Shown: piece after piece, positions 1-33,000 of the stretch
Layout of the letters: every line of letters starts with the position of its first letter
Position numbering within the stretch: the stretch's first letter is position 1
NCBI GenBank assembly: GCA_026770705.1
Contig: JANJGN010000013.1
Coordinates: 41,168,001-41,232,000 of the forward strand
DNA length: 64,000 nucleotides
Direction of reading: 5' to 3'
DNA from: Isurus oxyrinchus
Lineage: Eukaryota
Made by a program: the position numbers

Positions 1-3000
1 AACAGTACATTGCATTAACGCTGCTGGGGACTCTGGTACTTAGTATTTGTTAAAGTTAGGTCTATAAAAAATCCTGACGTGATCATACGTTCTGTAAAAC
101 ATAAAAAAGCAGGAACCATGAACAGTCATCATTCATTTCCACATATTCTACCATTTCCTTATTCGTTAAAGCTTCCAGCTTTTAGATATATCTTGATTCG
201 CCTCCTCGTCTACCTCAATAGCTTTACCCAGTTAATCTTTTAAGTTGATTGTCAAAAGGGAAAAGAACGCTGATATTTTTCAAATCAGCCACTTGCTGTT
301 CGTACCAATGATCTACTGTTTTTGACATTATACATTACCTAATAAAACAGCGGAGGATCAACTCTTGTGTCATAAATAATGCGCGGTTTAATTTATCACC
401 ATCATACGTTTTTATTAAGAAACACATAATAAATTGGGTTTCTTTGCACTTTCCAGCGCGTCGTTTCATTTACACGTTTTCATATCACACAAAGGTTGCT
501 TAAAGGCGCGCTTCCTTTAACGTCTTATATCGAATTAAGCAATTGGAAAGGCTCACATTATAGTTAGTGGGTCAGAGCATTCACCAGAGAAACGAATTCT
601 CCCAACCCCTTATGTATTTTAATTTATTCCAAAATTAGAACGTAGTTTTAATTTCTGGGTTATAATTTTTTGTAGTTGAACTTTACAAAAAAGAATGACA
701 AGATGGATAGTTGACAAAATGAAGTTCCACGGTATGGACTAAATACTATGAAGATGAGGGAATGATTCTAACTGAAGTACCCCGACTGCCCGGTTATCCA
801 AGCATTAACTTTCTGAGTTAACAATTACCAGTGATTAATGGAGGTTCCTGGTACTTGCTTCACCATGAAACCCGCCATAATTACATGATTTATTATCTAC
901 AGTGCTTTGTGCTGACCTGCACGAATCAAATCAATGAGCATATTGCAATAAACACTCCAAACAAACAGGAAACGGACACCCACCCCCGTCATTATGGGAT
1001 TGGAATTTCACGTAATTATCCCTTCATAGACCAGGGTTGGGCCACAACCACATCCCCAACCTGAAACTTTTCACTGACCCACTTTTAACGATAGTGAGGT
1101 CGGCCCCTGTGCCAAAGGCGCATAAATGACTCTTTGCTGTAACACTATTGAATAAAGAGACCTAACCATAGCAAAACTAAACTCTAATCAAGTCAAATAT
1201 GGGGGGGGGGGGGGGGGGGGGGGCACATGCATACAGCAGAAACAGTGAAGACTGTGGCCTCTTACATCCCAAAATGCTATGAATACCCAACACACCCAAC
1301 ACATAGGCTGTCTAAATCATCACACACAGGCTAAAGCTTGGCTTCCATGGCCCGCGTGAATGTAAGGAGAAAGTCTCTCGTTGGTTGATGTGTTGCTAAT
1401 ACCAATCTGTGAACATTTTGGTTAACATTGAATAACCATTTTGTAAATTACCGGGTACATTATGGGATAACTTCCAGCAGTTATGTAAATGCCTTATCAC
1501 GACAGAACGCGCGTGACAACACCAATCACGGTACTTGCAAACACAAATCTGTGCAATTATACAACAGATACATAATTACAGTGGATTAGTCTGCAAATAA
1601 TAAAGGTTATAGGTAAAGAGTATATATTGGCAGACTTTCGTTGAGGTACGAATGGATTTGACAAGTAACACAAACCAAAGTGCTCAGAGTTTCAGGTGAA
1701 TCTTGGATACAGCAACTTCAGGTGAAAGCATATTTTTCAAATATCTAGCAAGCTCCTTATATTAAACATATCTGAAGCGCCGACACTCTATAAACGCTTC
1801 TCTTAATGGTGTAGCATCAATTTCCCCTCAAACCAAACGCCAGTTAATTCCAAATCCACTGCATACATTCAAATGCAGCCAAGCTAACATTTTCTAAAAA
1901 GGCAGAACTGTTTTTTTTCAACATGTAATCAAACCGCATAAACTTTGAAGAGAAACGTCAGAAAAAATAATTACAGAACTCCAAGGAGTAGAGGAGATAA
2001 TTTTATTTGCTGTAAATTTCCATACAGTTCTATCCGGAGCCCAGGAGTAGGGATATTGGGGAATTTAAACCAGCCTTTAGGCATTACAAATGACCTTTTT
2101 GGATTTGCATTTGATTAATGCTTTGTGGTGTAACAGCTGGAACAAAAAACATAAGCGACTGCTTGACAGTGCAGGTTCAGGTGAATACCTTCTCCTGTTT
2201 TAAGAAATTAGTTTGCAATACCTCGTGCAATAAACTGCATTGGCATTAATGCCGTCAAACGCTTTTGTTTTCCACTTTCTTATTTGCGTTTCTACTCCGA
2301 GTAGGTATCAATTTTCAGGTACTGCAAAAAAACCCCCCACACATCCACACAAAAGCCGTCTGTGTCTCTTCTGATGAATTTTGCTGGCCAGCTACCCGGG
2401 AGATTCATTCCTGAGTAGAAACCCATAAATCAAGAGGCAGCTCCCTATTGTATGCTACATCTTATGCAAAAAGGTGTTTCCAGTCAGTGCCAAAGGCTGC
2501 AAAATCCTATTACAACTGAGGTCATTAATTATAGAAAGTCGACAAAACTGAATCCTGCTATTTTTCACCGAAAGCTTGAAAAATTATACGGCAGCTCTTC
2601 AAAACACACACAAGCGCGCAGATCGCAGACATACACGTACGTACACGAAGTACATGCCAGTACGACCGTTCATAGTACACAAACATAGGTGCACACAAAT
2701 ACACGCAGTCTGTAACAAAGGCATATCACATCTTAACATGAACTAAAGCACACTCATACAGGACACACTTGGAGTGCACACACTCACACAGTTCATCTCA
2801 TACACGCGCTCTTTCTCTCGCTCAGACTTGCTCACTCACATGCCCCTCCTCCCAATACCCAAAGACACATATGACACGCACATATCCTAATCTTTGTGAA
2901 GTTTGCAAACAAGGAAAACAACCAAGGTTGTACTAACTACAGAATAATTTCATTGGCACCATCTACATAACCGCTTTGATCACCGTCGTCAGACAGACTG

Positions 3001-30000: not shown

Positions 30001-33000
30001 GGCTTTCATTAATAACATATTTAGTTAGATTGTCAAAGTACGCCTCCGGGTTTTTTTTAAATGAATACGTGTATACCGAAGTTTTTATGCTGGATATGTT
30101 GGATATGATGAATTAGTTTTATGATGGAAAAAAATATTATTTAAAATAGACGGTAGAACTGGCACTTAATTGTGCCCATATACATACCTATATTTGTTAA
30201 CAGATCACTAAATACTTTACTGACCGTATGCAATATCAGGAAAACCTGAAGAAGTACAGATTGCTGGCAATAATTATATGTATCTCATTCCTCTGACTCC
30301 AGTGACAAAATTTATTATGTGGTTCTGTAACAAATCATAGATGACACTAAATCAAACATATATCTTAAACTACTTTTGTCAATTTAATTATATATTAAAA
30401 TACCACCAGGACAGAAACAAAGAGGAAAATCACTTTGGGCCACATAATCAGTACATCAAGTTGCTATGATGAGTTAAACTGCATCACTTATTGCTATTTT
30501 CTAACATTTACAGAGATTACACTGTATAATCAAGGGTTTGATTGAATGGCCTTTTAAATAGTTTTCTTTTGGTCTAAATCCCAGTAATGTATCATTATTA
30601 ATCTAACAGTACTTTCAAACGCAACAAAATCAAGATAATGCGTAAGTTGTTGTATATGATGAGTTGTTTGTGGTTTTTTCAACGCAATTCTATATTTTTT
30701 TTTACTAAGGGTTGCAATTCCTAAATAAAGCTGATCAGGGTAACTATGGAAAAGTGGTTTAAACTTTCATAATGCAATTTGATCAATATTATGCATTCTA
30801 ATAATTCAAGATTCTACTACTTTAGATATATTGAAACTTTTAATAATTTCAATACCAGCAATGTTACTGTCCCTTTTATTAGGTTAGACTGTTTTATCAA
30901 TTATCATTTTCCAATCTTTAACTCTGAAAAAAAGAAGCACGATCTCTATTGATTCTTTGTGTTTGGCAGTCTTGGGATAATCTGTTTTGTACTTATGTAA
31001 TGTAGTTTCAGGTACACAATGAAGTGTAAAATTATTGCATAATTCACTATAGCAACAGTATAGCTGCACTAAAGCTATGCCAAACTTTTTTCAAGAAGAT
31101 GAAGTGATGACAGAGATGAGGAGAATTTTTTTCTCACTAGGGTTGTGTGACTTTGGAACTCTGCCTCAGAAGGCTGTGGAAGATGGGTAATTGAATATCT
31201 TTAAGTTGGACGTAGATAAATTCTTGTTAGGCAGGGGAATCAAAGGTTATTGGAGGTAGATGGGAATGTGGAATTAGAAATACAAACAGATCAGCCATGA
31301 TCTTATTGAATGGCAGAGCAGGCTCAAGGGGCTGAATGGCCTACAACTGCTCCTATTTCATATGTTCATGTGTAAGCCATCTCAAACTTGCACCATCTGC
31401 AGTAAAACTCAAATCCAGTGTGAAGCCTCATTTTAAATATGTCTAGATGGCCCAATAGACTGCTTAGAAACTTTCAAAACTTAATGCGGAATCTTTTTAA
31501 TGTTACCGAAGAACAGGTGCTTCCATGCACACATTTTCTAACTAGCTGTTGGTAACTCAAACAGATTGTAAAGCACATATGAGGGTGCAAACAGATTATT
31601 ATTGAAGCTGTACCTCACATCCAGTCACACTGAGATCAAACTATGGTATAACAAGACATTTATACTTGAACTAGCCATCTAATCTGTAGAACATGAGGCA
31701 GAGTTAGAAAAGTAGAGTTATACCACTGACAGCATGTTGCACTGAGATCAGAGACAAAGGAGATTTTGGTATGCATGTTGCAGTGGTCCCTGGGCAGTTA
31801 ATTTTAATGTTAGGTGAACACAGGTGGCAGAGTCCACTTCTCCTCTCATTAAAAACATCAAAACGGAAATGGGATCACCTGGATAATTTTTGAAAATGCA
31901 GATTTGTGCTTGCTGGAGTTATACTGCATCATGTGTAAACTCAGATTAGTGTGAAATGGTCACTTGGCAAGGATTAACCATCATTTGACATTACTGCACT
32001 TATGAATCTGATCAGGGCCTGATTGCCAAGTCATATTGCCAACCTTGTAGGTTTATGGATCTCAAATCACATTGCATCAATGTTAAGATGGCAGCATAAC
32101 TGCATTATTTGCCTTTGAATCGATGTTGCCGGTAATGTAAGTTATGAAATATTTGAATCGTTTTTCAACTTACCATCTGGGCATAAAAATGACATTCGGA
32201 ATGGAAATAAAAATCAGGCAATCTGTGCAATTGCTGGACCAATTGCAATGCCAGTTTTATGTCTAATTGGCAAGTTAAAATCTGCCCCAATATTTGAATT
32301 AGTATCACACATGATCTGTAATGGAACCACACTGTAAAAGATAGAACCAGGTTTGGAATACATCTTTGATAGCTGCTGTAGAACTGAGAAAGCTCACTGC
32401 TAAAATCTCCCTTTTAATATGCCAGCTTGTCTTTCTGTTTGTATTTTCTCAATCGTGTGATCTTCCCAAGTGTTATCATAAAATTTAGAAATTGATTTTC
32501 TTAATATGTGGTTGCAAAATAATGTTTCAATATCTCTCTTTCCAATGGAAACTCTTCTGTATATCTCCAGTTCAATGTGATCTTCTACTGGCTATGTGGG
32601 ATTTACTCAGATGCTGATTGGGTGTTCACTTTTGCTTTGGTGTACCTATGTTTGGACAACAGTGTTTCAATTTAGTATTTGTGATATTACTTCCTGAGAA
32701 GATGCTACATTCTAAGATTATATGTGAAAATAATAGTCACATCTGGTTGGATTTTTACTTCAATCAATGCCGGAGCACTAATGCATCAGTCATCAAGGTG
32801 TCAAATCAAAATTATGCTTATGGTGCTGTGAGTAGAAGTAGACTTGAGTGTTAAGGCAGTCAGATCATATTATTGACCTTGGTTAAAAAGGCCTACTGAA
32901 AGTTTCCACAGGAAATGAAAATATTCAAGAAATTTGTGCCAAATTTAAAAGCTAATGAACTTAAAAAAATAAACTAAACAAACTGTCACTGTAAGTCAGT

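What the first reader, a model, noticed from the sequence alone, without database searches (positions are those of the whole stretch)
1..30250. At least 30 kb of CpG-retaining, transposon-poor DNA around Lhx5, with an abrupt edge near 30.2 kb
Seen: CpG stays common even in AT-rich intronic and intergenic DNA up to ~30.2 kb. By hand I count about 18 CpGs in 14641-15061. CpG then drops abruptly: none in 30241-30600 and only 1 in 52081-53040. Clearly recognisable LINEs, SINEs and DNA transposons begin at 31.1 kb, and only two small fold-back repeats were recognised inside the domain. Known: vertebrate developmental TF genes often sit in Polycomb-marked DNA-methylation valleys and TE-depleted regulatory blocks. 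Inference: this is a long-lived germline hypomethylated domain whose boundary is recorded in the sequence, extending ~17 kb upstream and past the left edge of the window.
Basis: partly seen in the sequence, partly recalled or inferred. Interest (0 to 1): 0.7.

Follow-up and report, generated by a model that had tools for sequence, protein, structure and literature searches.

The report
CpG-retaining valley around shark Lhx5
The first 30 kb of this shark window, which holds the brain-patterning gene Lhx5, has kept its CpG sites while the DNA beyond a sharp edge has lost them, the expected footprint of a long-standing unmethylated "valley" of the kind already known around developmental genes in other vertebrates.

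Summary
Positions 1-30,230 hold 820 CpGs (27.1 per kb, observed/expected 0.72). Positions 30,231-64,000 hold 300 (8.9 per kb, o/e 0.215), at nearly equal GC (0.388 v 0.406).

- **Edge:** one change point at 30,230 (support 30,070-30,730) beats no change by 185 log-likelihood units; the null maximum was 7.9 in 500 simulations. A step fits best and a transition wider than about 2 kb is disfavoured.
- **Uniformity:** retention inside the domain is even across exons, introns and both flanks. 89% of the domain is AT-rich DNA that fails CpG-island criteria.
- **Gene and organism:** an intact five-exon Lhx5 on the minus strand, closest to bamboo shark Lhx5. I take the contig for elasmobranch, not human.
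- **Transposons:** LINE and Harbinger-type remains were found only right of the edge. My detection had no repeat library, so its sensitivity is limited.

Best reading: a germline-hypomethylated DNA methylation valley (broad non-methylated island), a known vertebrate feature. Not tested here: methylation itself, Polycomb marks and cross-species conservation. This is a new member of a known kind, of moderate-to-low interest.

The parts
1..30230 (.). CpG-retaining domain, open at the left edge of the window: 820 CpGs, 27.1 per kb, o/e 0.72, GC 0.388
30070..30730 (.). Support interval of the boundary (maximum likelihood at 30,230). It lies in the most AT-rich kilobase of the window (30,001-31,000, GC 0.298). 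There is a 395-bp CpG-free gap from 30,225 to 30,620.
30231..64000 (.). CpG-depleted flank: 300 CpGs, 8.9 per kb, o/e 0.215, TpG/CpA o/e 1.31. TE-annotated parts give 0.277 and unannotated parts 0.184.
12592..12762 (-). Lhx5 coding exon 1 (ATG at 12760-12762; LIM domain 1). The end is an approximate tblastn HSP limit.
   Evidence: 100% identity to P0001 residues 1-57
10549..10776 (-). Lhx5 coding exon 2 (LIM domain 2), approximate limits
   Evidence: 97.4% identity
9531..9815 (-). Lhx5 coding exon 3 (first part of the homeodomain), approximate limits
   Evidence: 98.9% identity
8625..8816 (-). Lhx5 coding exon 4 (end of the homeodomain), approximate limits; the HSP runs past the true exon end
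   Evidence: 81.7% identity over the HSP
5594..5986 (-). Lhx5 coding exon 5 (C-terminal region; stop codon at 5594-5596)
   Evidence: 95% identity to Chiloscyllium punctatum Lhx5
23502..24058 (.). Largest classical CpG-island segment upstream of the gene (GC 0.573, o/e 0.73), 10.7 kb upstream of the ATG. It is one of 9 classical-island segments that together cover only 3,366 bp of the domain.
20610..20675 (.). Short interspersed-repeat fragment inside the domain, one of only two detected there
21887..21962 (.). Second short repeat fragment inside the domain; a third copy lies at 33,227-33,297
31068..31433 (+). First recognisable transposon: 3' fragment of a LINE, 84% identical in DNA to the copy at 51,268-51,535
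39160..39694 (+). LINE ORF2 C-terminal fragment
40829..45200 (.). GC-rich (0.552) decayed PIF/Harbinger-type DNA transposon region. It holds a DDE_Tnp_4 fragment at 42917-43270(-), a weak Myb/SANT-like match at 40829-41347(+), and an internal 252-bp duplication. CpG o/e is 0.27.
51142..51761 (-). LINE 3' fragment
62317..63227 (+). Longest LINE fragment: the C-terminal part of ORF2 past the reverse-transcriptase domain, plus the 3' tail

Best explanation
Positions 1 to about 30,230 are part of a large domain that has been unmethylated, or nearly so, in the germline for a long time. It spans the whole Lhx5 gene, at least 5.6 kb downstream and 17.5 kb upstream.

Proposed mechanism:
- In a pervasively methylated vertebrate genome, 5-methylcytosine at CpG deaminates to thymine. 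Methylated DNA therefore drifts to a low CpG equilibrium with excess TpG/CpA.
- DNA that escapes methylation in germ cells and the early embryo keeps its CpGs.
- Both sides of the edge look internally homogeneous. Each therefore appears to sit at its own equilibrium, and the edge must have stayed within about 1-2 kb for the whole relaxation time.
- The domain matches the published class of DNA methylation valleys, canyons or broad non-methylated islands over developmental transcription-factor genes. In other vertebrates these carry Polycomb H3K27me3 and are kept free of methylation with the help of TET enzymes.
- Transposon remains are seen only outside the domain. This is consistent with selection against insertions in a dense regulatory block, with methylation of the elements that do persist, or with both.

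Shown here: the CpG step, its sharpness, its independence from GC and from annotation class, the gene identity, and the one-sided transposon signal.

Inferred: hypomethylation itself, its germline timing, Polycomb involvement, and the cause of transposon exclusion.
For: - **CpG step:** o/e 0.720 +/- 0.025 against 0.215 +/- 0.012 at GC 0.388 against 0.406. The change point at 30,230 has LLR 185 against a null maximum of 7.9 in 500 simulations.
- **Sharpness:** a step fits best, and widths above about 2 kb are disfavoured.
- **Homogeneity inside the domain:** 120 tiles of 250 bp fit one rate (chi2/df 0.72, p 0.99). 95 of 120 tiles exceed 0.5 and 6 of 120 fall below 0.3. On the right, 97 of 135 fall below 0.3 and 5 of 135 exceed 0.5.
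- **Equal retention by class:** downstream 0.65, exons 0.77, introns 0.75, upstream 0.77 and 0.69. The 26,864 bp that fail CpG-island criteria (GC 0.37) still have o/e 0.70.
- **Deamination footprint:** TpG+CpA o/e is 1.31 on the right and 1.18 on the left. The right-hand CpG deficit of 1,092 is accompanied by a TpG+CpA surplus of 1,252.
- **GC-rich control:** the Harbinger-like block (GC 0.552) has o/e 0.27, while left GC-rich segments give 0.68-0.86.
- **Gene:** five tblastn HSPs cover residues 1-407 of bamboo shark Lhx5. Exon 5 is 95% identical to it.
- **Literature, passages read:** cartilaginous-fish genomes are pervasively methylated, transposons included (PMC5437953). Zebra shark blood shows 68.9% CpG methylation (PMC13047888). 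Valleys of 5 to about 60 kb over HOX, DLX, LHX and similar genes are conserved in seven vertebrates (PMC8941758). Valleys show low deamination rates and depend on Polycomb and TET (PMC5806489). Non-methylated islands of cold-blooded vertebrates have high CpG o/e without raised GC, and the broad ones are Polycomb targets (PMC3583005).
Against: - No methylation, chromatin or cross-species data could be consulted, so hypomethylation is inferred only from its mutational footprint.
- The domain's o/e is 0.72, not about 1. Its TpG/CpA o/e is still 1.18. Some methylation, at some stages or in some generations, is therefore not excluded.
- No match to a recalled CTCF consensus lies near the edge: 0 matches at up to 1 mismatch, and 1 match at up to 2 mismatches, inside exon 1, against 3.4 expected by chance. 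Nothing in the sequence marks how the edge is set.
- Transposon detection was weak. Only 6.9 kb of the right 33.8 kb could be assigned to elements. Only 1 of 30 right-hand ORFs passed a Pfam transposon cut-off.
- The window shows one edge only, so the full size is unknown.
Confidence: 0.8

Rival explanations
1. CpGs are kept by purifying selection on densely packed conserved non-coding elements and exons, with no difference in methylation.
For: Lhx5 is a developmental regulator of the type that sits in blocks of conserved non-coding elements (general knowledge; listing of PMC5585340). Published valleys are described as highly conserved in sequence (PMC5806489).
Against: Retention is not patchy. 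120 tiles fit a single Poisson rate (chi2/df 0.72, p 0.99). Exons, introns, the downstream region and two upstream blocks all lie at 0.65-0.77. Selection would have to hold 647 CpGs evenly across 26.9 kb of AT-rich non-island DNA. Conservation itself could not be measured here.
Confidence: 0.05
2. The left half is the ordinary state of this genome. The right half is the oddity: a transposon-rich, heavily methylated patch that lost its CpGs.
For: All detected transposon remains lie on the right. Transposons are hypermethylated in the elephant shark (PMC5437953). The genome-wide CpG o/e of this species was not available.
Against: The 26.9 kb of the right half with no recognised transposon is even more depleted (o/e 0.184) than the annotated elements (0.277). 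Cartilaginous-fish genomes are pervasively methylated. The zebra shark paper's figures imply about 43.7 million CpGs in that genome. With a genome size of roughly 3.7-3.9 Gb, which I recall and did not get from any call, that is about 11-12 CpGs per kb. This is close to the right half (8.9) and far from the left (27.1).
Confidence: 0.06
3. The domain is only partly or intermittently methylated in the germline, resembling a partially methylated domain and not a true valley.
For: The o/e is 0.72 and not about 1, with residual TpG/CpA excess of 1.18.
Against: The domain is gene-centred on a homeobox gene, lacks detected transposons and has an edge of at most about 2 kb. As I recall them, partially methylated domains are gene-poor, repeat-rich and hundreds of kb long. 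Non-methylated islands of other vertebrates also show o/e below 1 (PMC3583005, passages).
Confidence: 0.1
4. The step is an assembly join between two unrelated pieces of DNA at about 30.2 kb.
For: The change is abrupt. It falls in an AT-rich stretch with no recognisable feature.
Against: There is no N and no gap anywhere in the window. Nothing else changes at the site: GC and the other dinucleotides are similar on both sides. Abrupt edges are what published valleys show. Even a join would leave the 30 kb domain itself real.
Confidence: 0.03

Closest known systems
DNA methylation valleys or canyons (unmethylated regions of at least 5 kb over developmental transcription-factor genes; Xie 2013 and Jeong 2014, both seen only as citations; PMC5806489 and PMC8941758, passages read)
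   Same: It is gene-centred on a LIM-homeobox gene and reaches far beyond the promoter across the gene body and flanks. Its size of at least 30 kb lies within the published 5 to about 60 kb. It has a low-deamination (CpG-retaining) signature relative to its flanks. LHX genes are named among valley genes.
   Different: Here it is defined only by its mutational footprint, not by a methylome. The organism is a cartilaginous fish. Two library searches found no description of valleys in that group. 89% of the domain is AT-rich DNA that fails CpG-island criteria.
Broad non-methylated islands of cold-blooded vertebrates (Long et al. 2013, PMC3583005, passages read)
   Same: CpG o/e is high while GC is almost the same as in the surrounding DNA (0.388 against 0.406). 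It is associated with a developmental transcription factor.
   Different: Non-methylation was not measured here, and the Polycomb mark was not tested.
Hyperconserved CpG domains (cited as reference 41 in PMC5806489, where 146 of 190 lie in valleys; original paper not read, authorship recalled as Tanay and colleagues, 2007)
   Same: A long CpG-retaining domain at a Polycomb-type developmental gene.
   Different: Those domains are defined by cross-species conservation of CpG content in mammals. Conservation could not be tested here.
Transposon-free regions (Simons et al. 2007, PMC2241635, passages read)
   Same: Tens of kb around a homeobox gene carry no recognisable transposon. TFRs up to 80 kb are reported in human, mouse and opossum, and TFRs over 10 kb are common in zebrafish. 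The paper notes an association with H3K27-methylated chromatin.
   Different: Two repeat fragments of about 70 bp lie inside, at 20.6 and 21.9 kb. My detection used no repeat library, so strict transposon freedom is not shown.

Membership tests
DNA methylation valley / canyon | Contiguous region of at least 5 kb with very low CpG methylation in a base-resolution methylome | not testable with these tools
   No methylome is available. Only the indirect footprint (CpG o/e 0.72 against 0.215) was measured.
DNA methylation valley / canyon | Covers a developmental transcription-factor gene and extends well beyond its promoter | tested here: met
   All five Lhx5 coding exons (5594-12762, minus strand) lie inside. 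The domain reaches 17.5 kb upstream and at least 5.6 kb downstream.
DNA methylation valley / canyon | Low CpG deamination relative to surrounding DNA | tested here: met
   CpG o/e is 3.3-fold higher and TpG/CpA excess is lower (1.18 against 1.31) than in the flank, in every GC bin.
DNA methylation valley / canyon | H3K27me3 / Polycomb occupancy when the gene is silent | not testable with these tools
   No chromatin data.
DNA methylation valley / canyon | Valley present at the orthologous gene in other vertebrates | not tested
   No vertebrate genome collection was on hand. LHX genes as a group are listed among valley genes (PMC8941758). The per-gene supplementary tables are closed.
Classical CpG island (at least 200 bp, GC at least 0.5, o/e at least 0.6; criteria recalled and also cited in PMC3583005) | GC of at least 0.5 together with CpG o/e of at least 0.6 | tested here: not met
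   Only 3,366 of 30,230 bp fall in segments that pass. The remaining 26,864 bp have GC 0.37 and o/e 0.70.
Broad non-methylated island of cold-blooded vertebrates | High CpG o/e with GC close to that of surrounding DNA | tested here: met
   o/e 0.72 at GC 0.388 against o/e 0.215 at GC 0.406.
Transposon-free region | At least 10 kb without any annotated transposon | tested here: inconclusive
   No transposon protein signal in 1-30,230: 0 of 25 ORFs and 0 bp matched by LINE proteins. The longest stretch without any detected repeat is 1-20,609. No repeat library was available.

The most novel reading that the evidence does not exclude
The valley edge has stayed fixed to within about 1-2 kb for long enough that both sides reached their own CpG equilibrium. 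It lies in AT-rich DNA with no island character and no CTCF-like motif. This would mean that in sharks the position of a valley boundary is inherited through the germline as a chromatin state, such as the edge of a Polycomb domain, and is not set by local sequence. It would also mean that ancient germline methylomes of non-model vertebrates can be read at kilobase resolution from a genome sequence alone. The full domain may run well past the window and exceed the sizes reported for valleys so far.
Probability: 0.25. Interest if true: 0.55.

Novelty: new member of a known kind. Interest (0 to 1): 0.33.

Why it matters
Large unmethylated valleys over developmental regulators are held to be an ancient vertebrate feature. 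The published maps I could find cover mammals, chicken, frog and teleosts. This window shows the mutational footprint of such a valley at Lhx5 in a shark. That supports an origin before the split of cartilaginous and bony vertebrates.

The footprint is also strikingly clean: homogeneous inside, sharp at the edge, and independent of GC. A simple CpG o/e segmentation could therefore map valleys and their edges in any shark or ray genome without methylome data. That would allow tests of whether valley size scales with genome size and whether edges are conserved. It does not reveal a new mechanism.

Tried and rejected
- **GC content as the cause:** rejected.
- **A gradual transition:** rejected.
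- **Further sub-domains:** the dips at 1-2 kb (o/e 0.51) and 25-26 kb (0.41) are not significant. The best extra change points have LLR 1.3 and 2.5, below the null 95% values.
- **CTCF-type insulator motif at the edge:** This is a weak test.
- **Known RNA families:** 0 Rfam matches at gathering score in the whole window.
- **Tandem repeats:** only 6 rows, none at the edge.
- **Same repeat inside and outside the valley as an internal clock:** the three copies of the roughly 70-bp repeat each carry private CpGs (2, 1 and 1). This settles nothing.
- **Pfam on ORFs as a transposon detector:** insensitive. 1 of 30 right-hand ORFs passed a cut-off and 0 of 25 left-hand ORFs did. The more useful tests were self-comparison and tblastn with named LINE proteins.
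- **Literature for valleys in cartilaginous fish:** 'methylation valley' plus 'shark' gave 5 papers (3 listed), and none of the 3 listed is about sharks. 'Cartilaginous fish' plus 'unmethylated' plus 'CpG islands' plus 'developmental genes' gave 0 papers. The elephant shark methylome paper has 0 occurrences of 'valley'.
- **Not possible here:** comparison with other vertebrate Lhx5 loci.
- **Closed supplements:** the per-gene valley lists of PMC8941758 and PMC5806489 could not be seen.

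
Full report
**What the window is.** The window has no N. On the minus strand it carries an intact LIM-homeobox gene.
- Five stop-to-stop ORFs hold LIM, LIM, homeodomain, homeodomain end and a C-terminal region. The fourth exon's homeodomain match is below the Pfam cut-off (17.5 against 22.9 bits), and the fifth has no Pfam hit.
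- I searched with the last coding exon alone (window:5597-5980, minus strand). Of 322 candidates, 146 proteins had E <= 0.001.
- The best hit was Lhx5 of the bamboo shark Chiloscyllium punctatum at 95% identity. Birds and turtles came next at 79-83%, and mammals lay at about 54-77% (platypus highest).
- A tblastn of that shark protein (P0001, 407 aa) against the window gave five HSPs covering residues 1-407. Identities were 100, 97.4, 98.9, 81.7 and 93.8%.
- The gene model was handled exon by exon throughout. The joined (spliced) protein was never built or searched.
- I take the contig for elasmobranch, not human. The LINE family in it also finds its best named relatives in rays, skates, sharks and a chimaera.

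**The observation.**
- Per kilobase, CpG o/e is 0.41-0.94 in all 30 windows up to 30 kb and 0.03-0.47 in all 33 windows from 31,001 on.
- The totals are 820 CpGs in 30,230 bp (27.1 per kb, o/e 0.720 +/- 0.025) and 300 in 33,770 bp (8.9 per kb, 0.215 +/- 0.012). GC is 0.388 against 0.406.
- I fitted a Poisson change-point model with local C and G frequencies as exposure. It places one change at 30,230, with 2-log-likelihood support 30,070-30,730 and LLR 185.1.
- In 500 simulations of a homogeneous window the largest LLR was 7.9.
- A step is the best-fitting shape. A logistic transition of scale 300 bp loses 1.7 units, 500 bp loses 2.7 and 1000 bp loses 5.0. The 10-90% width is therefore at most about 2 kb.
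- Neither half contains a further significant change point.

**Is it only base composition?** No.
- In each of six GC bins, the left 250-bp tiles have o/e 0.63-0.74 and the right tiles 0.14-0.27.
- Inside the domain, tile o/e is unrelated to GC (rho -0.07).
- The right half provides a natural control. The Harbinger-like block at 40.8-45.2 kb has GC 0.552 but o/e 0.27, whereas GC-rich segments on the left have 0.68-0.86.
- Of the other fifteen dinucleotides, none differs between the halves by more than about 0.16 in o/e. TpG and CpA are higher on the right.
- The right half's CpG deficit (1,092) is accompanied by a TpG+CpA surplus of 1,252. The left has a deficit of 319 and a surplus of 648. 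This is the direction expected from deamination of methylated CpG.

**Is it patchy constraint?** No.
- The 120 left tiles fit a single Poisson rate (chi2/df 0.72, p 0.99).
- Annotation classes are alike: downstream and 3' region 0.65, coding exon cores 0.77, introns 0.75, upstream 12.8-20 kb 0.77 and upstream 20-30.2 kb 0.69.
- Classical CpG-island criteria are met by only 3,366 bp in nine segments. The other 26,864 bp have GC 0.37 and still o/e 0.70.
- This uniformity is what a domain-wide mutational regime gives. Scattered conserved elements would not produce it.

**Transposons.** I had no repeat library, so I used four partial tests.
1. blastn of the window on itself gave 14 non-self HSPs. 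They cover 140 bp (0.5%) of the left and 1,716 bp (5.1%) of the right.
2. tblastn of all 729 ORFs of at least 40 aa against the window gave 27 non-self hits. They define one LINE 3'-end family with copies near 31.07-31.43, 39.29-39.66, 51.14-51.76 and 62.3-63.2 kb, and a duplicated stretch in the 42.6-44.4 kb block. The only left-hand repeats are fragments of about 70 bp at 20,610-20,675 and 21,887-21,962.
3. Pfam found a DDE_Tnp_4 (PIF/Harbinger transposase) fragment at 42,917-43,270 (E 2.9e-16) and a sub-threshold Myb/SANT-like match at 40,829-41,347. That is 1 of 30 right-hand ORFs above a cut-off. None of the 25 left-hand non-Lhx5 ORFs matched.
4. The ORF at 62,317-62,763 matched 79 of 267 candidates at E <= 0.001. 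These are proteins with reverse-transcriptase and endonuclease domains, and the named ones come mostly from cartilaginous fishes. Thirteen of those named proteins, run by tblastn against the window, matched 1,766 bp in four right-hand intervals and 0 bp on the left.

The first recognisable element begins about 0.85 kb to the right of the change point. The parts of the right half that I could not assign to any element (26,862 bp) are even more depleted (o/e 0.184) than the assigned parts (0.277). The low CpG of the right half is therefore not a property of transposons alone.

**The edge itself.**
- It falls in the most AT-rich kilobase of the window (GC 0.298). The sequence there has no feature I could name.
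At up to 2 mismatches it has a single match, inside Lhx5 exon 1, where 3.4 were expected by chance.
- This is a weak test and gives no support for a sequence-encoded insulator.

**Interpretation.** Cartilaginous-fish genomes are pervasively methylated.
- In the elephant shark most CpGs are at least 80% methylated, transposons included (PMC5437953, passages).
- In zebra shark blood the mean is 68.9% (PMC13047888, passages).
- Against that background, the right half's o/e of about 0.2 is the expected decayed state.
This is near the right half's 8.9 and far from the left's 27.1.
- The left domain is therefore the exceptional part. The standard explanation is long-term lack of methylation in the germline.

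This is the published class of DNA methylation valleys, canyons or broad non-methylated islands.
- They are regions of 5 to about 60 kb over HOX, DLX, LHX, FOX and similar genes, found in all seven vertebrates examined (PMC8941758).
- They are conserved between human, mouse and zebrafish, show low deamination rates and depend on Polycomb and TET (PMC5806489).
- In cold-blooded vertebrates they are marked by high CpG o/e without raised GC (PMC3583005).
- Mouse Purkinje cells lack methylation over Lhx5 at birth (PMC8683082).
- The absence of transposon remains fits the transposon-free regions described around homeobox genes (PMC2241635).

**What remains inferred.**
- Methylation, its germline timing, Polycomb marks, conservation of the domain and its edge in other species, and the cause of transposon exclusion were not tested.
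- The o/e of 0.72 with a TpG/CpA o/e of 1.18 leaves room for some low or intermittent methylation.
- Only one edge is in view, so 30.2 kb is a lower bound.

**Novelty and score.** The kind is well known, and LHX genes are already named among valley genes.
- In the searchable library I found no description of such valleys in cartilaginous fish. That is an expected extension, not a surprise.
- The clean, sharp, GC-independent footprint is a good teaching case and a practical handle for sequence-only mapping of valleys in sharks.
- I rate it a new member of a known kind, with interest about 0.33.

Noticed in passing
window 23502-24058: An isolated GC-rich CpG-island segment (GC 0.573, 33 CpGs, o/e 0.73) lies 10.7 kb upstream of the Lhx5 ATG. 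The long ORFs across it (23594-24040 +, 23631-23972 -) have no Pfam match. It could be an orphan island, a distal promoter or a poised enhancer.
   Followed up: partly
window 20610-20675, 21887-21962 and 33227-33297: Three copies of a repeat core of about 70 bp, two inside the CpG-retaining domain and one outside. Each copy carries private CpGs (1, 2 and 1), so they do not serve as an internal clock. Its family was not identified.
   Followed up: partly
window 40829-45200: A GC-rich (0.552) decayed Harbinger-type element. It has a 252-bp internal duplication (42667-42918 and 44026-44277, 95% identical) and a 53-bp poly-C run (44891-44943) that reads as a proline stretch. TpG/CpA o/e reaches 1.47-1.63 per kb here, the highest in the window.
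   Followed up: partly
window 7824-7865: A 42-bp G-rich run (period-12 unit GGGGGGGTGGGG) in the last Lhx5 intron, inside a classical CpG-island segment (7559-8052, o/e 0.86).
   Followed up: no
window 5413-5476: A G-rich and C-rich inverted repeat (30-nt arms, 83% complementary, 4 nt apart) just downstream of the Lhx5 stop codon, probably in the 3' UTR.
   Followed up: no
window 28433-28671: An inverted repeat with 21-nt arms (81% complementary) 197 nt apart.
   Followed up: no
window 30001-31000: The kilobase that holds the boundary is the most AT-rich of all 64 (GC 0.298).
   Followed up: no
window 60108-60220: Two overlapping short tandem arrays (periods 20 and 19, 2.2 and 4.5 copies) in the CpG-poor flank.
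   Followed up: no
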